Shown here: positions 111 through 9,822 of the stretch, piece by piece | How the letters are laid out: each line of letters opens with the position of its first letter | How positions within the stretch are numbered: the stretch's first letter is position 1 | DNA from: a virus | Lineage: Duplodnaviria; Heunggongvirae; Uroviricota; Caudoviricetes | Direction: 5' to 3' (one strand) | IMG/VR virus record: IMGVR_UViG_3300015182_000005 | DNA length: 9,822 bases | Made by a program: the position numbers and the translations under genes | Notes under the pieces: model-generated | Seen by the model: the letters and a program-made list of their open reading frames with translations, nothing else | What the model was told of the DNA's origin: nothing | Database searches by the model: none

Positions 111-140
111 GCGTCAATACGGTGCTCCGTTGACGCTTAC
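111..140. repeat. Putative IS66-type terminal inverted repeat (right end), with an internal 9-bp palindrome AAGCGTCAA / TTGACGCTT
   Basis: GCGTCAATACGGTGCTCCGTTGACGCTTAC; outer end is 5'-GTAAGCG on the complementary strand. Exact inner boundary of the repeat cannot be set without the other IS end. Confidence 0.55.
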
Positions 141-3100
141 CCTGACCCCAAGAGAGCCGTCCGCTGCCCGTGTCAGTGGCATGATTGCTTCAGGCCCGGC
201 CTCGCCCATCAACCCGGCCCCCTTCGCAAAAGCAAAATACGTCGGTGTATCCACAATAGTGTTACTGTAAGCACTCAGATTTGCCGATGTGTAAACACCA
301 CCTTTTGCGTTTGCCACTGCCCCCGAAATCCATCCGCCGACCGTACCAAGCCACCCTCCGGCACCGGAGAGTGATTTCAGTCCGTTAACAATGGCTGCAT
401 TCATCAGAATTTTTGAAACTTCCCGGAGAACTGAACTCCCCCAGTTCCTCCAGTCCACAACATTTCCGGCCAGTGCATCGGAAATATTTGATACCAGCCC
501 GTCCATAGTGGAAACGACAGCATCTGCCGCCTGCGAAGCATAATCGGTGGCACTGTCTGCCCAGTTGGTCAGCCCCTCCTGGAGTCCTGCATTCCAGTTA
601 TTACGTAAAGCATCGGCCTTTGCATAATAATCCTGCTGATCGCTGAGACGCTCTTCCAGATATTTTTTATTCAGTTCTTTCTCCTGTTTCCACAGGGCTT
701 CTTCAATTTCTCCGGCCTGATACTGTCTCAGCAGCTCGTTATTTTTCTGCTCAAACTCATGCCGGATACTCCACATTTCCTGGAGTCGTTCACGCATCCG
801 TGAGCCTTCACCATATCCCAGTAACTGCGCGTCGTTAGACGCCCGGGTACTGGCATTACTGTCCGCCAGGCTGCTTTCATACGCAGCAAGCTGCTCACGA
901 ATCTTTTTCTGGTCGATGAGTGCTGCATTCTGCAAAAGCGTTTTTTTCTGCGCTTCTGACAGGGTTGATAATTCGCCCTGACTGACCTGATATTTCATCT
1001 TAGCCAGTTCAGTATTCTGCCCTGCCAGTGCTATCTGTTCTTTTTGCTGTTTAATCAGCCGTTTATAAATATCTTCTGTTTTTTCCGCTTCGGTCTTTTT
1101 ATGCGCTTTGGGTTTATTTGCCTGGTTATTTCGCCAGGCATCCAGTGAGTTATTGATATAATTCTGTCTGGCTGTCTGATACGCCTCTCCCACAAAGCCA
1201 AGATCATCCGCAGCATAGCCCAGTCGAGCACGCTCACGCGCTTCCCCCTTAAGGCGGGACAGAGCCAGTTCGCGCTTGCTGTTATTCAGTGCGGTCTGCT
1301 GTTTATCATCCAGGGTTGCCTGTGGTAGCCGTAACGGTACATTCACCAACCCCTGTCGCTGCTGAAGTAATTCATTACCAAGCCCAAGAAGGCGATTAAA
1401 CTCGGTATGCTGCCCATTCATGATCAACAGGGACTGATACGCTTTGTTTTGTTCCGCCGCCTGTTGACGGATCAACGCAACCCGCCGCTCCTCCAGCCCG
1501 GCAAGCACATCCTGAATGGATTGCGCTTTGCCCTGCATTTGTGTGAGACGGGACTGTTCAACTGCCAGTTGATTTGTTGCTTCTGCAAGCCCTTCTGTGA
1601 CTGTTTTTACCGACGTCATGTGGTTAATCATAAAACCGTTATCGGTTGTCCAGCCCGGGTTTGCCAGCACATACTGATAGCCAGCAATTTTTTCCTGTAA
1701 GGATTTAATCTTACTTTTCTGCTCGTCAATTAACCTGTTTTGCTCATCAAGTGCCTGCCGCGTCTTTTCCTCATTATCTGACGCTTCAGGAAGCGACATT
1801 GCCGACGTTTTCTGGCGAATTTCGTCGATTGTTGCGGCATACTGGCGTGCAGATTCTCTGGCCTGCTCCTGATTCTGATACATCGTGTACCAGGCCGTCG
1901 CCCCCAGCATGACGAGTCCCGGCACACCACCAACCAGCCCCAGCGCACCACTTAACAGACGACTCCCCACTGACGTGACAGTATTCAGCGTTGTCTGCGC
2001 CGCTGTTCTGGCCGCAATATTACGGGTAAGTGACGCCTGAGCAGCTGTCAGCTTCGCTTCTGCTGCGGCCTGCCTTTCGGTACCGCGAGCAGCAACAACC
2101 GCCTGTTGCGCACGATAAACCGCCGCACGCGCTCTGGCGGTTGCTATCTGTGTCCCCCGAAGTTGCGCTTCAGCAAGAGCCACTTCGTTTCTGGCTGCAG
2201 TAATTAATCCGGCAGTTGCAGATCCAGCAGACGACGCCATATTGCCAAAATATCGGGCTACCCCGACGGCAACCAGTGCGCCAGCTGCAGCAGCCACGGT
2301 ATCAATATTGTCTGCAACACCATTCAGCACACCGGAGAGTGTCTTTGTCACTCCGCTTGCCTCGTTCGCACCACCAACCCAGGCCATAAAGGCGTTTTCA
2401 ACTTTGGTTGCAGAGGATGAAACAGTATCAGGCATTGCTGCATATTCATCACGCAACGCCCCAAGCTGACTAATCAGTGCAGGAACAACCTTATCGGCGG
2501 TCAGTTTTCCGTTATCCGCCATGGCCTTCAGATCCTTACGGGCAACCCCCATTCCCGCAGCCAGCGCACGAATAACACGATCGCCGTTCTCATTCACCGA
2601 GTTAAACTCTTCACCGCGCAGCACTCCCTGCGCCAGTGCCTGACTGAACTGCATGATCACCGAACTGGCTTCTGCTGTACTGGCACCGGATAATTTCAGG
2701 CCCGTGGAGATCGCCTCGGTGACTTTCAGTACCTCCTCAGAACTGTAACCATACTCCCGCATGGAAGCTGCAGAACGGGCAAAAAGGCTGGCGTTATCAG
2801 AAAACGCCGTCCCCGTTCTCTGGCTGATCGCCATTAATTCACGCTGTGATGCCTGAAAATCATCACTGGACTGTGAGGCCTGCTTCAGACGGGCATTTAC
2901 TGAATTCCACTCATCGGCGAGAGAAATAAGATGACCGGTAGCAAAAGCCCCGGCAAATGCCCCCGCCATATTCAGTGCCGAAGATTTAGCTGTATTTATC
3001 TGATCCGTCACTTCTGCCAGTGCACGCCGCATTTCACGGGAGGCAGCAGCAGACTGTTGGCCTCCGTTCTGCATGGTGCGGTAGTAATCCTGCCCCATAC

Positions 3101-3185
3101 GCGAAGCCCGGGAGATCTCTGACTGGAATGACCGGGAGTTTGCCGAGATTTTAATAATCAGTTCACGTAATGTCGCCACACTCAT
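114..3185 (-). CDS. Tail tape measure protein (lambda gpH-like), 1023 aa as it stands; the last 8 codons and the stop are IS-derived, so the native C-terminus is probably missing
   Basis: Long ORF directly downstream of the G/GT chaperone pair. Ala/Gln-rich coiled-coil middle section, hydrophobic glycine-rich segments, and a C-terminal region (NWADSATDYASQ ... GEAGPEAIMPL) resembling the lambda H C-terminal region. Codons 140..117 (VSVNGAPY) and the TGA at 116..114 lie inside the IS terminus. Confidence 0.88.
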   Translation of the reverse strand: MSVATLRELIIKISANSRSFQSEISRASRMGQDYYRTMQNGGQQSAAASREMRRALAEVTDQINTAKSSALNMAGAFAGAFATGHLISLADEWNSVNARLKQASQSSDDFQASQRELMAISQRTGTAFSDNASLFARSAASMREYGYSSEEVLKVTEAISTGLKLSGASTAEASSVIMQFSQALAQGVLRGEEFNSVNENGDRVIRALAAGMGVARKDLKAMADNGKLTADKVVPALISQLGALRDEYAAMPDTVSSSATKVENAFMAWVGGANEASGVTKTLSGVLNGVADNIDTVAAAAGALVAVGVARYFGNMASSAGSATAGLITAARNEVALAEAQLRGTQIATARARAAVYRAQQAVVAARGTERQAAAEAKLTAAQASLTRNIAARTAAQTTLNTVTSVGSRLLSGALGLVGGVPGLVMLGATAWYTMYQNQEQARESARQYAATIDEIRQKTSAMSLPEASDNEEKTRQALDEQNRLIDEQKSKIKSLQEKIAGYQYVLANPGWTTDNGFMINHMTSVKTVTEGLAEATNQLAVEQSRLTQMQGKAQSIQDVLAGLEERRVALIRQQAAEQNKAYQSLLIMNGQHTEFNRLLGLGNELLQQRQGLVNVPLRLPQATLDDKQQTALNNSKRELALSRLKGEARERARLGYAADDLGFVGEAYQTARQNYINNSLDAWRNNQANKPKAHKKTEAEKTEDIYKRLIKQQKEQIALAGQNTELAKMKYQVSQGELSTLSEAQKKTLLQNAALIDQKKIREQLAAYESSLADSNASTRASNDAQLLGYGEGSRMRERLQEMWSIRHEFEQKNNELLRQYQAGEIEEALWKQEKELNKKYLEERLSDQQDYYAKADALRNNWNAGLQEGLTNWADSATDYASQAADAVVSTMDGLVSNISDALAGNVVDWRNWGSSVLREVSKILMNAAIVNGLKSLSGAGGWLGTVGGWISGAVANAKGGVYTSANLSAYSNTIVDTPTYFAFAKGAGLMGEAGPEAIMPLTRAADGSLGVRVSVNGAPY

Positions 3186-3195
3186 TCTCCGGACG

Positions 3196-3217
3196 AAAAA
3201 AAACCGCCGAAGCGGTT
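3196..3217 (-). terminator. Intrinsic-terminator-like hairpin plus U8 between GT and the tape measure gene
   Basis: Minus-strand RNA AACCGCUUCGGCGGUU followed by UUUUUUUU (A-run at + 3196-3203), then CGUCCGGAGA and the ATG at 3185. Confidence 0.55.
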
Positions 3218-3225
3218 ATGTTGAC

Positions 3226-3914
3226 TCACTGAGACACTATTAAAAGCGCGTTTTCCAGTCCGGCAAATGGATCTGAAGCGCCTTCTGTCTGCTCCTTCTC
3301 CCACTGAAGAAGCGCATCATTCAGTGACACTTTGACCCCCTGCGCACCGTAAATAGCTGAAACAATCTGGGCAGCCCGGAAATCAGCCCGTTCGTCCCCC
3401 AGCGGGCTGAACCTGTCAAATTCTGCCCACATCATGATTTCTGATGCGGACATTTCCCGGCGTAACTCTGACAATGTGCGCCCCATCCTGAGCGCCAGCA
3501 TCATCAGAAAACGCATCCCCGGAAGCGCTACTTTTTTTTAACCTCGCCGGCATCACTGATCAGTTCCAGAGACTGCCGAAGAAGCCGCGCATGCACCGGG
3601 CCATACACGGCAATCACCTGTTCACGATCATCCTCTGAAAATACGGGTTGCAGTCCGGTATCACACAGAACATCAATGAACAGTTCAACATCTGCCTCCA
3701 GATTTCGGCGGGCGCGCTCCGCAACGGATAACGGTGTCTCATCATCTTTTGCTTTAACGATCTCCTGCCAGCGCAACCAGGCTTCTGCAGAAGGTTCCCG
3801 TAACACAACCGTTGCTCCCTCCCATTCAGGCACATCAACGGTTTTATGGCGAAACCCCGACATCGTTGCCAGTGCCAGATTACGGATATTTTTAGTCATC
3901 ACATCCATCCTCAT
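3226..3914 (-). CDS. Tail assembly chaperone GT-like fusion made by -1 programmed frameshift (G frame 3914..3531, then -1 frame 3537..3226)
   Basis: G ORF ends ...GEVKKK-stop on the run GTT AAA AAA AAG TAG. The -1 frame is open from 3537 and continues (VALPGMRFLMM...) to TGA at 3226. Position directly upstream of the tape measure gene matches the conserved G/GT arrangement. Confidence 0.7.
3528..3914 (-). CDS. Tail assembly chaperone (lambda gpG-like), 128 aa
   Basis: ORF between the major tail gene and the tape measure gene. Start ATG overlaps the major tail stop (TAATG); an alternative start at 3899 has GAGG 9 nt upstream. Ends in the slippery A-run. Confidence 0.75.
   Translation of the reverse strand: MRMDVMTKNIRNLALATMSGFRHKTVDVPEWEGATVVLREPSAEAWLRWQEIVKAKDDETPLSVAERARRNLEADVELFIDVLCDTGLQPVFSEDDREQVIAVYGPVHARLLRQSLELISDAGEVKKK
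3531..3537 (-). promoter_or_regulatory. -1 ribosomal frameshift slippery heptamer A AAA AAG (the dnaX-type site)
   Basis: Minus strand 3537..3531 = AAAAAAG in the X XXY YYZ register of the G frame, 1 codon before the G stop. The -1 frame downstream is open for more than 100 codons. Confidence 0.65.
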
Positions 3915-7438: not shown

Positions 7439-8038
7439 TTATGCATTAAGAAGGGTCAAAAGGCGCTCACGCGCCATTCGTTCATTAACAGCTTTCTTCA
7501 GCGCACCACTCGCCCGCGCTTCCTGCCAGGCTTTCATTGAGCGGACACCGGAGTCTGCGTCCTGATAGGCCGGATATGTCACCGGGCTGACGTCATACAG
7601 ACGAGAAATGCGCGTGATTTCCCGGATAACAATCCCCTCGTCGTCTTCATACCAGCTCTCTCCGTCACTGGCGACACGAAACGCGAACGAGGACTGGTTA
7701 ATGTCACCACGCAACATTGGAGACAGCACCAGGTCACAAATAGTCGGAGTATCCGGTGCAACAATGTCATAACGTAAACCGCGTTCATCCACCGACAATG
7801 ACAATGTGCCGGCAGAACTTCGTCCGAGAATGAAATTAGGATCATGATTAAACAAGCCACGTACATCATCATTCAGTACATCATCAAAAGCCCCCGGCTT
7901 GATGATTTCACGAAATCCCCACAGAGGTTCTGAACGACTGTTAAATACCGAGCCATACCCCAGAATGTGGGTCGGGGCATTATCATATTGTTCCGCCCGC
8001 ACCTCCCCGCTGTAACAGCGCGTTTCACGATCATTCAT
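7439..8038 (-). CDS. Prohead maturation protease (HK97 family), 199 aa
   Basis: Position between portal and capsid. Motifs GYGSVFN, LFNHD (His) and INQSSFAF (Ser) are consistent with the HK97 prohead protease family. Start overlaps the portal stop by 8 nt. Confidence 0.82.
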   Translation of the reverse strand: MNDRETRCYSGEVRAEQYDNAPTHILGYGSVFNSRSEPLWGFREIIKPGAFDDVLNDDVRGLFNHDPNFILGRSSAGTLSLSVDERGLRYDIVAPDTPTICDLVLSPMLRGDINQSSFAFRVASDGESWYEDDEGIVIREITRISRLYDVSPVTYPAYQDADSGVRSMKAWQEARASGALKKAVNERMARERLLTLLNA

Positions 8039-9257
8039 CGTTCTTTTCCTCTGTGCCTTTCGTATCTTTAAAGTTATTCAACGGATTTGCTGCATTTACG
8101 CTGACCAGCATTTCATCCAGACCGTCAACCGGGTTCATATCCTCAAATGCCCTGGCTTCATTCCGACTCATCCAGCCATCTGTAATGGCAAAGTGATAGA
8201 ACTGCGCACGCTCCTGTGGGGTCCCACGGAGCAACCCCGTGAGGTTAAAACGAACGTAATACCCGGCAGCCCGTTCTGTACGGGTAAACAGGCGACGGTT
8301 AAGCTCCTGCTCCCAGTTCGCAACCCAGGGCATCATCGTGTAGCGAACAAACTGAATCGCCTGCTGCGTAATATTCGAAAATGTGGCTTTTTCCAGGTCA
8401 TTAATCATGTGCGCCGGGACATTAAAAATCCCTGCAATCATCGACCTGTTCAGCTTGGTCATATCAATGATCTGAGCATCCACCGGAGAAACTGTCAGAG
8501 CGCGGTAATCCAGTTGCGCAGGCAACAGCATGGTTTTATTTTCCTGGCTGCGAAGCGCTGTCACCGCCCGCTGCCACATATTTTTAAGCCTGCCCCAGCT
8601 CTGTTCGTTCAGTTCATTTTTCACAGAAATAATACCGGCAGGACGGGCATTACCGTTAAAAAAGGCGCTGGTATACTGCTGGCCACTCATTCCCATACCA
8701 ATGGTTTCAGCATGCTGCATGATCGGGCTCAGTCCCATTTTCTGATTGTTTCCCAGCGCCCTGATATGGATCATGTCGTCCGGACTTACCGCAAATGCAC
8801 CCTCTTCGTTATACACCCCGTAAGTATGACGCCCACCGGTGTTAAGTAACGTGGTTTCCCATGGCATACAGCATTCAAGGCTGGTAACCTCTCCACGACG
8901 ATTACGTTTTACCCACGTATAACCATTGCCCCACCCCAGCACATGACGCTGCTTCAGTTCCCGCCACTTATAGCTGGTCTGCCAGGCATTAGGTTCATCA
9001 TGAACGAGCCAGAACAACGGATGATCGCGTGCAGGCTGAACATGCTCATTCGTTTTTCGCATCACATGCAGGGGCATCTGAGCCACACTGGATGAAATAA
9101 CATAAATACAGGCATAGACAGCAGCCAGCTTCATGGATGTTTCCGGACTGACATACACATCCCGGGCAAAAATATTATCCGTCTCAGCGGCCTCTCCGGT
9201 TACCGGAACCGAGGGATTTTCCAGAGACTCACTGCGAAACAGAGCATCAAGAAGCAT
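8031..9257 (-). CDS. Portal protein (HK97 family), 408 aa
   Basis: Position downstream of the large terminase; size and N-terminal pattern typical of HK97-type portals. AGGAGA 5 nt upstream of the ATG. Confidence 0.85.
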   Translation of the reverse strand: MLLDALFRSESLENPSVPVTGEAAETDNIFARDVYVSPETSMKLAAVYACIYVISSSVAQMPLHVMRKTNEHVQPARDHPLFWLVHDEPNAWQTSYKWRELKQRHVLGWGNGYTWVKRNRRGEVTSLECCMPWETTLLNTGGRHTYGVYNEEGAFAVSPDDMIHIRALGNNQKMGLSPIMQHAETIGMGMSGQQYTSAFFNGNARPAGIISVKNELNEQSWGRLKNMWQRAVTALRSQENKTMLLPAQLDYRALTVSPVDAQIIDMTKLNRSMIAGIFNVPAHMINDLEKATFSNITQQAIQFVRYTMMPWVANWEQELNRRLFTRTERAAGYYVRFNLTGLLRGTPQERAQFYHFAITDGWMSRNEARAFEDMNPVDGLDEMLVSVNAANPLNNFKDTKGTEEKNDE

Positions 9258-9387
9258 GTTTTCTCCTCATGGACACTACCAGTGCATAAAGCAGCAACAA
9301 ACAGCCCGACAGCATCAGAGACGCTGGCAGACCTGCATACAGATAAACGCCAGCAGTGAGCAAACCGAAACCGATCAGCCCGGTCAT
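9247..9387 (-). CDS. Hypothetical 46-aa hydrophobic (two-helix membrane) peptide between terminase and portal
   Basis: ATG at 9387 to TGA at 9247 encodes MTGLIGFGLLTAGVYLYAGLPASLMLSGCLLLLYALVVSMRRKHAS: two hydrophobic stretches, a basic C-terminus, and CTG-rich enterobacterial-like codon use. No clear ribosome-binding site; below the ORF-track size cutoff. Confidence 0.35.
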   Translation of the reverse strand: MTGLIGFGLLTAGVYLYAGLPASLMLSGCLLLLYALVVSMRRKHAS

Positions 9388-9404
9388 ATCAGTAATAAGC
9401 TGTT

Positions 9405-9822
9405 TCACAGAATTAACAGGTCCTCATCAGGATCAAGCGTGGACAGAAAGTCATTCACGCCCCCGCCATTTACCAGAAAGCGGCTCATGGCCGTAAAAAG
9501 CGCAACAGGGCCGTCGATTTTGGCTTCAGGCGTGGATTTATTCGGGAAGATGTTGTCGTTTTTGTCCGGTTTTACCGTAACGTTAGACATCATCCAGTTC
9601 ATGACCGGATGATTGCTGTGATGGAAACGCCCGGCATAAACCAGTGATTCCGTTTCCTTCATGGCCTCTGACAGATTGCGGACCGTCTGCGGAACCTCCA
9701 CCAGCGGTATCCCTTCTTCAGCCAGTGCCAGGCTGAACTGCATTGCGCTCCACGGGTCAAATCCCAGTTCCCTGAGGTTTTCACCGCCAATCCATTCCAG
9801 TAAGTCACTTTTTATCTGAGCA
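9405..9822 (-). CDS. Terminase large subunit, C-terminal part (N-terminus lies outside the window)
   Basis: Frame is open from the window edge to TGA at 9405. C-terminal sequence ...VTVKPDKNDNIFPNKSTPEAKIDGPVALFTAMSRF... matches the conserved KIDG..A end of HK97-type large terminases. The track lists only the part from an internal Met. Confidence 0.82.
   Translation of the reverse strand, partial: AQIKSDLLEWIGGENLRELGFDPWSAMQFSLALAEEGIPLVEVPQTVRNLSEAMKETESLVYAGRFHHSNHPVMNWMMSNVTVKPDKNDNIFPNKSTPEAKIDGPVALFTAMSRFLVNGGGVNDFLSTLDPDEDLLIL

What the first reader, a model, noticed from the sequence alone, without database searches (positions are those of the whole stretch)
9247..9387. Unannotated 46-aa membrane-like peptide gene wedged between terminase and portal
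The 147-bp gap between the terminase stop and the portal start holds an ATG-initiated ORF that ends 11 nt inside the portal gene. It encodes two hydrophobic helices and a basic tail (MRRKHAS) with CTG-rich codon use. A head module normally has no membrane protein here, so this could be a small moron such as a membrane-acting or toxin-like peptide, or simply a chance ORF. The basic tail is encoded by the portal ribosome-binding site, which weakens the case.
Basis: inference. Interest (0 to 1): 0.55.

Follow-up and report, generated by a model that had tools for sequence, protein, structure and literature searches.

The report
Conserved small phage membrane protein gene

Summary
The ORF exists on the minus strand and is a real gene, not a chance ORF.

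- **Start codon.** The conserved start is the GTG at 9408, which overlaps the terminase stop as GTGA and gives 53 aa.
- **Conservation.** The frame, its 52-55 aa length and both overlaps are kept in prophages of Escherichia, Klebsiella, Salmonella, Morganella, Edwardsiella, Yersinia, Pragia, Limnobaculum and Ralstonia.
- **Selection.** pN is below pS in all 36 pairs. Among close relatives, 9 of 10 polymorphic sites are synonymous (P = 6e-5).
- **Annotation.** It is not unannotated. PGAP calls it 'hypothetical protein' in the 40 records I viewed, out of 634 complete E. coli genomes that carry the region. It matches PHROG 7105 over its full length.
- **Relatives.** Profile comparison links it to E. 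coli K-12 e14 YmfR and phiE125 gp3 (PHROG 502) and to Pseudomonas D3 orf3 (PHROG 4810). All lie between TerL and portal. Gram-positive DUF1056 proteins (Sfi21 orf59) are positional analogues; homology is only suggestive.
- **Not a classic moron.** It has no promoter or terminator of its own, the GC matches the flanks, and it is translationally coupled on both sides.
- **Function.** Unknown. My best guess (about 35%) is a dispensable membrane accessory of packaging or head assembly.

The parts
9247..9408 (-). Small gene, 53 codons plus stop: MKQLITDMTGLIGFGLLTAGVYLYAGLPASLMLSGCLLLLYALVVSMRRKHAS (GTG start read as Met)
   Evidence: ORF list. Annotated with the same bounds in phage Evi. PHROG 7105 match E 9.4e-20 over 1-52/52. 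Frame and length conserved. pN<pS in 36 of 36 pairs. 9 synonymous to 1 non-synonymous polymorphic sites.
9405..9408 (-). GTGA overlap: the small-gene start codon GTG (9408-9406) shares TG with the TerL stop TGA (9407-9405). This is a termination-reinitiation coupling site.
   Evidence: Sequence. ATGA or GTGA at the same junction in 10 homologous loci and in 79 of 80 IMG/VR loci.
9385..9387 (-). It is not the conserved start.
   Evidence: Residue 8 is V/A/L/I/M in homologues, while residues 1-7 are conserved.
9328..9387 (-). Helix 1 (about residues 8-27). It is Gly-rich and only marginally hydrophobic (Kyte-Doolittle 1.4-1.55). It carries invariant G13 and G20 and near-invariant G10, Y22, L23 and G26.
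   Evidence: Hydropathy. Alignment A3. AlphaFold2 helix 2-25.
9268..9321 (-). Helix 2 (about residues 30-47). It is strongly hydrophobic (Kyte-Doolittle up to 2.2). It carries invariant G35 and near-invariant L31, L39, A42, L43 and A46.
   Evidence: (helix 27-48).
9250..9267 (-). Basic C-terminal tail RRKHAS. The family mean net charge from residue 47 onward is +2.9, so the tail is predicted to be cytoplasmic.
   Evidence: The Arg-Arg codons AGGAGA contain the portal Shine-Dalgarno sequence.
9263..9267 (-). Portal Shine-Dalgarno sequence AGGAG, 5 nt upstream of the portal ATG and inside the small gene.
   Evidence: Sequence. An AGGAG or AGGGGG stretch sits at the same place in homologues.
9247..9257 (-). 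11-nt overlap between the end of the small gene (TGA 9249-9247) and the portal start (ATG 9257-9255).
   Evidence: Overlaps of 7, 8 or 11 nt with the portal start occur in homologues.
8031..9257 (-). Portal gene (408 aa)
   Evidence: Pfam Phage_portal PF04860, E 3.4e-100.
9405..9822 (-). 3' end of the large terminase gene (nuclease domain). It runs off the end of the window.
   Evidence: Pfam TerL_nuclease PF20441, E 4.1e-20.

Best explanation
**What it is (shown, confidence about 0.95).** A genuine late gene of a lambdoid E. coli prophage with an HK97-type head (near-identical to phage Evi). It encodes a 53-aa protein that is almost entirely two membrane helices joined by a very short loop. 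Predicted topology is N-in/C-in, with a basic cytoplasmic tail. It belongs to a catalogued but uncharacterised family (PHROG 7105). Profile comparison links that family to E. coli K-12 e14 YmfR and Burkholderia phiE125 gp3 (PHROG 502) and to Pseudomonas D3 orf3 (PHROG 4810). In nearly every case examined the gene sits between TerL and portal.

**How it is expressed (inferred from anatomy, about 0.8).** It has no promoter of its own. It lies on the late transcript that also carries TerS, TerL, portal, protease and capsid; in its near-identical relative Evi a Q antiterminator gene and the lysis cassette lie upstream. Ribosomes finishing TerL at UGA probably reinitiate on the overlapping GUG. Ribosomes translating the small gene run through the portal Shine-Dalgarno and AUG and stop 8 nt past the portal AUG, which would couple portal initiation. 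The protein would then be made in low amounts, comparable to TerL.

**What it does (inference, about 0.35).** It is a dispensable accessory of DNA packaging or head assembly that works at the inner membrane. It probably self-associates through its conserved Gly/Ala helix faces, and it may localise or stabilise terminase or portal/procapsid complexes there, loosely as T4 gp40 helps the gp20 portal start assembly on the membrane (from my own knowledge, not tested here).

The overall confidence of 0.55 blends these three levels.
For: **Gene reality**
- The frame is open and 52-55 aa long in 11 divergent loci, while the other five frames carry stops in most homologues, and none is open in all 11 loci.
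- Differences by codon position are 401/249/552.
- pN<pS in 36 of 36 pairs.
- In 40 near-identical IMG/VR loci, 9 of 10 polymorphic sites are synonymous, against 27% expected (P = 6e-5).
- M1, D7, G13, G20 and G35 are invariant in 96 sequences.
- A profile search found 163 protein clusters.

**Family links**
- PHROG 7105 E 9.4e-20, PHROG 502 E 1.3e-6, PHROG 4810 E 3e-4.
- hhalign probability 95.8% to the phiE125-like set and 90.6% to the D3-like set, against at most 19% for this family's own reversed controls (47% at worst among all).
- YmfR matches PHROG 502 at E 2.5e-28.

**Structure**
- AlphaFold2 gives helices 2-25 and 27-48, mean pLDDT 84.7.
- C-terminal charge averages +2.9; the N-terminus and loop are near 0.

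**Late-operon, non-moron status**
- No promoter-like or terminator-like site on the minus strand, and GC 0.49 like the flanks.
- Evi gene order is Q, S, R, Rz, terS, terL, X, portal.

**Link to the packaging module**
- The position is the same across Gamma- and Betaproteobacteria.
- Small-protein distances track the TerL C-terminal domain (rho 0.56, Mantel p 0.003) more than the portal (rho 0.36, p 0.12).
- When two genes are inserted after TerL, the small gene stays fused to the next gene.
- With a different portal and protease type it stays fused to TerL.
Against: - The function is not shown by anything here.
- The protein has only about 7 N-terminal and 6 C-terminal residues outside the predicted membrane helices, which is very little surface for binding cytoplasmic TerL or portal.
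- Related HK97-type modules lack it: HK97 itself, Serratia Ulliraptor, Caulobacter W2 and Clostridium phiCp-B. Campylobacter CJIE4-4 has a MazF toxin gene at the junction instead. It therefore cannot be essential to this kind of assembly.
- It evolves faster than its neighbours: 35-73% identity against 69-88% for the portal.
- Helix 1 is only marginally hydrophobic, so the two-span topology is a prediction.
- I found no ribosome-profiling, proteomic or genetic data.
- The TerL correlation rests on 9 loci and may reflect linkage rather than interaction.
Confidence: 0.55

Rival explanations
1. A late-expressed, membrane-acting accessory that is unrelated to capsid assembly. The hairpin would oligomerise or bind a host membrane protein in order to tune lysis timing (antiholin- or pinholin-like), alter membrane potential, exclude superinfecting phage during the lytic cycle, or blunt a membrane-based host response. 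On this view it sits at the TerL-portal junction only because that junction tolerates insertions.
For: - The protein is nearly all membrane helix, with conserved small-residue faces typical of helix-helix oligomerisation.
- Helix 1 is Gly/Ala/Ser/Thr-rich (43%) and weakly hydrophobic. That recalls the releasable first helix of pinholins (from my own knowledge).
- One family member has a sub-threshold hit to Phage_holin_3_6 (E 0.0028, 18 bits against a cut-off of 28.4).
- The junction accepts other cargo: MazF in CJIE4-4 and a glucosaminidase gene in L178.
- The gene is absent from several related modules.
Against: - The window peptide has no holin Pfam hit.
- The close relative Evi already has a canonical S/R/Rz lysis cassette elsewhere.
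- There is no PADLOC hit.
- The long-term fixed position and double translational coupling across Beta- and Gammaproteobacteria are unlike typical fast-turnover accessory genes.
- Its distances correlate with TerL.
Confidence: 0.3
2. Mainly a translational relay. The ORF is kept so that ribosomes leaving TerL are handed on to the portal start site, setting the portal-to-TerL ratio. The peptide itself has little or no function.
For: Overlaps exist at both ends in every enteric homologue. The portal Shine-Dalgarno sequence lies inside the ORF.
Against: - A relay needs only an open frame, yet specific residues are invariant (D7, G13, G20, G35). Hydrophobic character, length and charge pattern are all kept, and close relatives show 9:1 synonymous change.
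- HK97 couples TerL directly to portal with a 1-nt overlap and no spacer.
- In locus L177 the gene is followed by a 126-nt gap before the portal, so no relay is possible, yet the gene is kept.
Confidence: 0.07
3. A classic moron or toxin-like peptide that is expressed autonomously from the prophage and benefits or harms the lysogen.
For: It is small and hydrophobic. PHROG 502 is filed under 'moron, auxiliary metabolic gene and host takeover', but that is the generic bin for anything named 'membrane protein'.
Against: - No promoter-like or terminator-like site on the coding strand, and GC equals the flanks.
- The start overlaps the TerL stop.
- The gene is present at the same spot across orders of bacteria rather than sporadically.
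- The e14 homologue ymfR rises together with the other e14 genes when the SOS response is induced (PMC10012262). That is prophage induction, not lysogenic expression.
Confidence: 0.05
4. A chance ORF, or conservation caused by a DNA or RNA element rather than a protein.
For: An open 53-codon frame has about 8% chance probability per frame. The tail overlaps the portal ribosome-binding site.
Against: - The codon-position pattern and pN<pS in all pairs.
- 9:1 synonymous change, P = 6e-5.
- Only this frame is open in all homologues.
- No Rfam family matches.
- Full-length profile matches.
Confidence: 0.02

Closest known systems
PHROG 7105 (uncharacterised phage protein family, 52-position profile)
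   Same: Full-length match at E 9.4e-20. SfV, Morganella, Ralstonia and metagenomic members match the same profile. The position is the same in all of them.
   Different: Nothing differs; this is its family. The family has no name, structure or function.
E. coli K-12 e14 prophage YmfR (b1150, 60 aa, IPR020297), identical to Shigella phage SfII_03 'putative integral membrane protein', and Burkholderia phiE125 gp3 'membrane protein' (PHROG 502)
   Same: All lie between the large terminase (ymfN remnant) and the portal (beeE remnant). All are two-helix hydrophobic hairpins sharing a G-[LF]-x-G-F-[GA]-L-L-x-x-G motif. hhalign probability is 95.8% at E 6.6e-9 over 39 columns. The window peptide hits PHROG 502 at E 1.3e-6.
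   Different: This is a sister family, not the same one. These proteins are 60-61 aa with an acidic/Ala-rich C-terminal tail instead of RRGKRA, and they lack the MKxLIxD N-terminus. YmfR itself is uncharacterised.
Pseudomonas phage D3 orf3 (PHROG 4810, 54 aa)
   Same: 4-nt overlap with the TerL stop and 8-nt overlap with the portal. hhalign probability is 90.6% at E 1.3e-6.
   Different: It accompanies a different portal and an S49/ClpP-type protease. Its conserved tail is FIRKGLTSE. Its function is unknown.
Pfam DUF1056 (PF06341; PHROG 1142): Streptococcus phage Sfi21 orf59, Lactococcus BK5-T ORF4, and the more distant Bacillus phi105 ORF24
   Same: Same position between TerL and portal in HK97/Sfi21-type head modules, same size (59-72 aa) and same two-hydrophobic-helix build. 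phi105 ORF24 hits both PHROG 1142 (E 1e-16) and PHROG 502 (E 3e-7). The merged Gram-negative profile aligns in register with the merged Gram-positive profile over 45 columns (probability 29-34%, E about 5e-4, against 0.1-0.2% for reversed controls).
   Different: The window peptide has no Pfam DUF1056 hit at E<=1. The direct hhalign probability is 0.3%. Homology is not established. Database labels such as 'head-tail joining/connector' or 'capsid and scaffold' for DUF1056 come with no evidence in the records and conflict with one another; I take them to be positional guesses.
Phage T4 gp40 with the gp20 portal (membrane-associated initiation of prohead assembly), from my own knowledge
   Same: It offers a functional model: a small membrane protein that assists the portal at the inner membrane and is not part of the virion.
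   Different: No sequence relationship was tested or is expected. T4 gene 40 is not adjacent to gene 20. No evidence exists that HK97-type proheads assemble on the membrane.
Lambda gpW (the gene between A/TerL and B/portal), from my own knowledge
   Same: It occupies the same slot in the gene order.
   Different: gpW is a soluble head-completion protein. The window protein is predicted to be a membrane hairpin and has no gpW Pfam hit.
Pinholin S21 68 and other class II holins (from my own knowledge)
   Same: Small size, two helices, a weakly hydrophobic Gly-rich first helix and a charged C-terminal tail.
   Different: The gene is not in the lysis cassette, and Evi has its own S gene. The window peptide has no holin family hit.

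Membership tests
PHROG 7105 | Full-length match to the family profile | tested here: met
   E 9.4e-20, 71.2 bits, residues 1-52 on profile positions 1-52 of 52.
PHROG 7105 | Gene lies between the large terminase and the portal | tested here: met
   Seen in the window and in 10 or more homologous loci.
YmfR / PHROG 502 (IPR020297) | Profile match at family level | tested here: inconclusive
   The window peptide matches at E 1.3e-6 (28.8 bits), weaker than its match to PHROG 7105. hhalign probability is 95.8%. It is related, but a sister family rather than a member.
Pfam DUF1056 (PF06341) | Score at or above the gathering threshold (22.2 bits) | tested here: not met
   No hit at E<=1. By contrast, Sfi21 orf59 scores 39.5 bits and BK5-T ORF4 scores 121.5 bits.
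Pfam DUF1056 (PF06341) | Detectable remote homology by profile-profile comparison | tested here: inconclusive
   Probability 0.3% with narrow alignments. With merged alignments it is 29-34% at E about 5e-4, in register, against 0.1-0.2% for reversed controls. Bridging hits: phi105 ORF24 to PHROG 502 at E 3e-7, and P0118/P0019 to PHROG 1142 at E 2e-3 and 7e-3.
Pfam DUF1056 (PF06341) | Small two-helix hydrophobic protein encoded between TerL and portal | tested here: met
Moron | Own promoter and/or terminator flanking the gene | tested here: not met
   No promoter-like or terminator-like site on the minus strand in 8900-9822. The start overlaps the TerL stop.
Moron | Base composition differs from neighbouring genes | tested here: not met
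   GC is 0.49 across the gene and 0.49-0.52 in the flanks.
Moron | Sporadic presence among otherwise similar phages | tested here: inconclusive
   Present in all close relatives and many distant ones. Absent from HK97, Ulliraptor, W2 and phiCp-B.
Holin / pinholin | Match to a holin family profile | tested here: not met
   The window peptide has no Pfam hit. Only a sub-threshold hit exists for relative P0019 (18.1 bits against a cut-off of 28.4).
Holin / pinholin | Encoded in the lysis cassette next to the endolysin | tested here: not met
   In Evi the S, lysozyme and Rz genes lie upstream of terS.
Holin / pinholin | Causes membrane permeabilisation | not testable with these tools
   This needs expression and membrane-potential assays.
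Lambda gpW-type head completion protein (the label carried by some DUF1056 records) | Soluble small alpha/beta protein with a gpW family match | tested here: not met
   Predicted hydrophobic helical hairpin. No Pfam hit.
Known anti-phage defence components (PADLOC) | Profile match | tested here: not met
   No hits for the window peptide, YmfR or D3 orf3.

The most novel reading that the evidence does not exclude
The enteric PHROG 7105 proteins, YmfR/phiE125 gp3, D3 orf3 and the Gram-positive DUF1056 proteins form one ancient superfamily of membrane hairpins. This superfamily would have travelled with the TerL-portal junction of HK97-type phages since before the Proteobacteria/Firmicutes phage lineages split. 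It would be an unrecognised accessory that ties terminase or portal/procapsid assembly to the cytoplasmic membrane. That would mean some HK97-type phages assemble or package at the membrane, as T4 does.
Probability: 0.12. Interest if true: 0.7.

Novelty: already known. Interest (0 to 1): 0.3.

Why it matters
On its own this is a correctly predicted 'known unknown': a hypothetical protein already in RefSeq and PHROGs.

Its value is as a pointer. A tiny membrane protein is encoded at the terminase-portal junction in many well-studied phages and prophages, including SfV, SfII, e14 of E. coli K-12, D3, phiE125 and phi105, and in the dairy phages Sfi21 and BK5-T. I found no published function for any of them.

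Genetically tractable hosts exist (E. coli lysogens of Evi/SfV-like phages, Pseudomonas D3). A clean knockout would show whether head assembly or DNA packaging in this large phage group has a membrane-linked step, or whether these are late membrane effectors.

It is also a practical annotation point:
- The correct start is the codon overlapping the TerL stop.
- Some reference records miss the gene (SfV).
- Some records give it unsupported names such as 'head-tail joining protein'.

Tried and rejected
- **Pfam, NCBIfam, PADLOC, Rfam and PDB sequence search:** nothing for the peptide.
- **Foldseek of the AlphaFold2 model against viral structures:** only uncharacterised hairpins at E>=0.69, which is uninformative for a 53-residue hairpin.
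- **The search for related loci with the peptide alignment on genome contigs:** I replaced it with per-protein contig look-ups and portal-based loci.
- **P0118 (Actinobacillus):** the contig was not on record, so its context is unverified.
- **TerL C-terminal tail as a partner motif:** acidic tails occur with and without the small gene, so I dropped the idea.
- **Plus-strand 159-aa ORF 9133-9612 as the real gene:** rejected, because it is open only in the window and has stops in all 10 homologues compared.
rejected.
- **Literature searches** (small membrane protein with terminase and portal; DUF1056; orf59; ymfR): no functional study. DUF1056 appears only in the Phage_Finder HMM list. ymfR appears only in gene lists.
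- **dN/dS among distant homologues:** limited by synonymous saturation (many dS values undefined). I therefore used pN against pS and within-clade polymorphism instead.
Full report
**1. The observation**

All genes in the window are on the minus strand. The 3' end of a large terminase gene (Pfam TerL_nuclease, E 4.1e-20) stops at TGA 9407-9405. A portal gene (Pfam Phage_portal, E 3.4e-100) starts at ATG 9257-9255. The gap between them is 147 nt.

An ORF fills that gap. The mechanical ORF list begins it at the GTG at 9408 (53 aa, 9247..9408). It stops at TGA 9249-9247, which is 11 nt inside the portal gene. The portal Shine-Dalgarno sequence AGGAG (9267-9263) encodes the Arg-Arg of the tail.

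An open 53-codon frame is not remarkable in itself, at about 8% per frame. The case therefore rests on comparison with other sequences.

**2. It is already annotated**

- The 351 bases around the gap match nine phage records at 98-100% identity, for example Escherichia phage Evi. Each has a 'hypothetical protein' between terminase and portal. In Evi the CDS has exactly the 53-codon bounds.
- The region matches 634 of 5,426 complete E. coli genomes, always on the chromosome. In the 40 records listed, the match overlies a 'hypothetical protein' annotation in all but one truncated case.
- The peptide matches PHROG 7105 over its full length (E 9.4e-20), with weaker matches to PHROG 502 ('membrane protein', E 1.3e-6) and PHROG 4810 (E 3e-4).
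- Pfam and NCBIfam have nothing.

**3. It is a real gene and starts at the GTG**

- tblastn and contig look-ups found divergent copies (35-73% identity). These come from Morganella phage IME1369_02, Shigella phage SfV (unannotated there), Edwardsiella EPP-1, Klebsiella and Salmonella phages, prophages of Yersinia, Limnobaculum and Pragia, and a Ralstonia phage.
- Every copy is 52-55 aa. In the ten annotated or called loci the start is an ATGA or GTGA overlapping the TerL stop, and the end overlaps the portal start by 7, 8 or 11 nt; in Ralstonia the ATG follows the TerL stop by one base.
- A profile search found 163 clusters. The clusters that carry a source organism name are from Enterobacterales, plus one from Actinobacillus.
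- In a 96-sequence alignment M1, D7, G13, G20 and G35 are invariant. K2, G10, Y22, L23, G26, L31, L39, A42, L43 and A46 are at 90% or more. The conserved start is therefore the codon on the TerL stop.
- Nucleotide differences fall 401/249/552 on codon positions 1/2/3.
- pN is below pS in all 36 pairs. The constraint is weaker than on the portal.
- In 40 IMG/VR loci of the window's own clade there are 10 polymorphic sites: 9 synonymous and 1 conservative change (T18A). Synonymous sites make up 27% of the gene, so P = 6e-5.
- The other five frames carry stops in most homologues, and none is open in all 11 loci. The 159-aa plus-strand ORF is open only in this window.
- No Rfam family matches.

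**4. What the protein looks like**

- AlphaFold2 with the 96-sequence alignment gives two helices (2-25 and 27-48) at mean pLDDT 84.7.
- Helix 2 is strongly hydrophobic (Kyte-Doolittle 2.2). Helix 1 is Gly-rich and marginal (1.4-1.55).
- The C-terminal tail carries +2.9 net charge on average. The N-terminus and the loop are neutral. The positive-inside rule therefore predicts N-in/C-in with a 2-4-residue periplasmic turn.
- The conserved Gly and Ala residues line helix faces, as expected for tight helix packing or oligomerisation.
- Only about 13 residues lie outside the predicted membrane helices.

**5. How it is expressed**

- No promoter-like or terminator-like site lies on the coding strand, and the GC content equals that of the flanks.
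- In phage Evi the order is Q antiterminator, S holin, lysozyme, Rz, terS, terL, this gene, portal, protease, capsid, tail. The gene is therefore part of the late operon, and the phage already has a canonical holin.
- The GTGA overlap with TerL and the 11-nt overlap with the portal imply translational coupling on both sides. This is an inference.
- HK97 joins TerL directly to the portal with a 1-nt overlap and has no such gene.

**6. Relatives and analogues**

The opposite holds.

- A small hydrophobic protein sits between TerL and portal in Pseudomonas D3 (orf3, PHROG 4810), Burkholderia phiE125 (gp3 'membrane protein', PHROG 502) and Shigella SfII (SfII_03).
- SfII_03 is identical to YmfR of the E. 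coli K-12 e14 prophage. There, ymfN (terminase remnant), ymfR and beeE (portal remnant) keep the same order.
- The same arrangement occurs in Vibrio K334, Bacillus phi105 (ORF24), Streptococcus Sfi21 (orf59) and Lactococcus BK5-T (ORF4). The last two are Pfam DUF1056 / PHROG 1142.
- Profile-profile comparison ties the window's family to the phiE125/YmfR set (probability 95.8%, E 6.6e-9) and to the D3 set (90.6%, E 1.3e-6). Reversed-sequence controls for this family reach 19% at most (47% at worst among all comparisons).
- The link to the Gram-positive DUF1056/phi105 set is only suggestive. Probability is 0.3% with narrow alignments. With merged alignments it is 29-34% in register, against 0.1-0.2% for controls. 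There are bridging PHROG hits.
- The gene is not universal. Besides HK97, it is missing in Serratia Ulliraptor, Caulobacter W2 and Clostridium phiCp-B. Campylobacter CJIE4-4 has a MazF toxin gene at the junction.

**7. Function**

Nothing in the searchable literature tests any of these proteins.

- DUF1056 appears only in the Phage_Finder HMM list.
- ymfR appears only in gene lists. One shows it rising with the rest of e14 when the SOS response is induced (PMC10012262). Another lists its ASKA clone among uncharacterised membrane-protein candidates (PMC10299036).
- Labels such as 'head-tail joining protein' or 'capsid and scaffold protein' on DUF1056 genes come with no evidence in the records and conflict with one another; I take them to be positional guesses.

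Evidence that bears on function:
- The position is fixed across orders of bacteria, with double coupling.
- In one contig the gene stays fused to TerL although the portal and protease are of another type.
- In another contig two genes are inserted after TerL, yet the small gene stays fused to the next gene.
- Across nine loci its divergence tracks the TerL C-terminal domain (rho 0.56, Mantel p 0.003) better than the portal (rho 0.36, p 0.12).

These points favour a role bound to the packaging/assembly module. I commit to that at about 35%. Against it, the protein has almost no soluble surface, it is dispensable in related phages, and it evolves faster than its neighbours. A purely membrane-level late function (lysis timing, membrane potential, exclusion) is nearly as likely, at about 30%. 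A pure translational-relay role is unlikely because specific residues are conserved, and because the gene persists where a 126-nt gap follows it. A moron and a chance ORF are both effectively excluded.

**8. Verdict**

It is wrong about the moron option, and the chance-ORF option is excluded.

The feature is an already catalogued, uncharacterised family member, so novelty is low. The modest interest lies in a widespread TerL-portal-linked family of tiny membrane proteins, which includes E. coli K-12 YmfR, for which I found no published function and which could be tested directly.

Noticed in passing
window 9133-9612 (+): A 159-aa ATG ORF lies antisense to the TerL end, the small gene and the portal start. 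Its frame is open only in this window and has stops in all 10 homologues compared, so it is spurious.
   Followed up: yes
L003 (SfV NC_003444) 2289-2450 and 2392-3666: The SfV reference record lacks the small gene. It starts the portal at 2392, 48 nt upstream of the conserved GTG at 2440, so the annotated portal N-terminus overlaps the small gene in another frame. This is probably an over-extended start.
   Followed up: partly
L178 2191-3413 and L179 401-1623; L384 1565-1999: The TerL-portal junction accepts cargo. A metagenomic relative has two extra genes (109 aa, and 271 aa with Glucosaminidase/Fer2 hits) between TerL and the small gene. Campylobacter phage CJIE4-4 carries a MazF toxin gene at the junction.
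   Followed up: partly
window 9405-9822 versus loci L002-L010: The TerL C-terminal domain falls into two types (38-45% identity between them, 63-88% within each). The adjacent portal is uniformly 69-88% identical. This points to mosaic exchange with a breakpoint near the TerL/small-gene boundary.
   Followed up: partly
H49 (NZ_CP020048, E. coli AR_0118); proteins P0007, P0009, P0011, P0012: Some E. coli genomes keep TerL and only the first 33-46 residues of the small protein, followed by unrelated sequence. In AR_0118 the match ends inside the small gene, next to an NlpC/P60 family gene. These look like prophage deletion or recombination junctions within the 3' half of the gene.
   Followed up: no
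L175 2674-2805 and L176 2686-2841: Streptococcus phages SVep1 and Javan238 have a second small ORF (43-51 aa) between the DUF1056 gene and the portal.
   Followed up: no
window 3226-3516 and 3528-3914 (-): Two adjacent small ORFs lie upstream of the 1023-aa tape-measure-sized ORF (114-3185). The corresponding genes in Evi are annotated as tail assembly chaperones. I did not check for the usual programmed frameshift.
   Followed up: no
L388 (Evi) 12770-12997 (+): The Evi record annotates a second 'terminase small subunit' on the opposite strand, overlapping the real terS. This is probably a spurious call.
   Followed up: no
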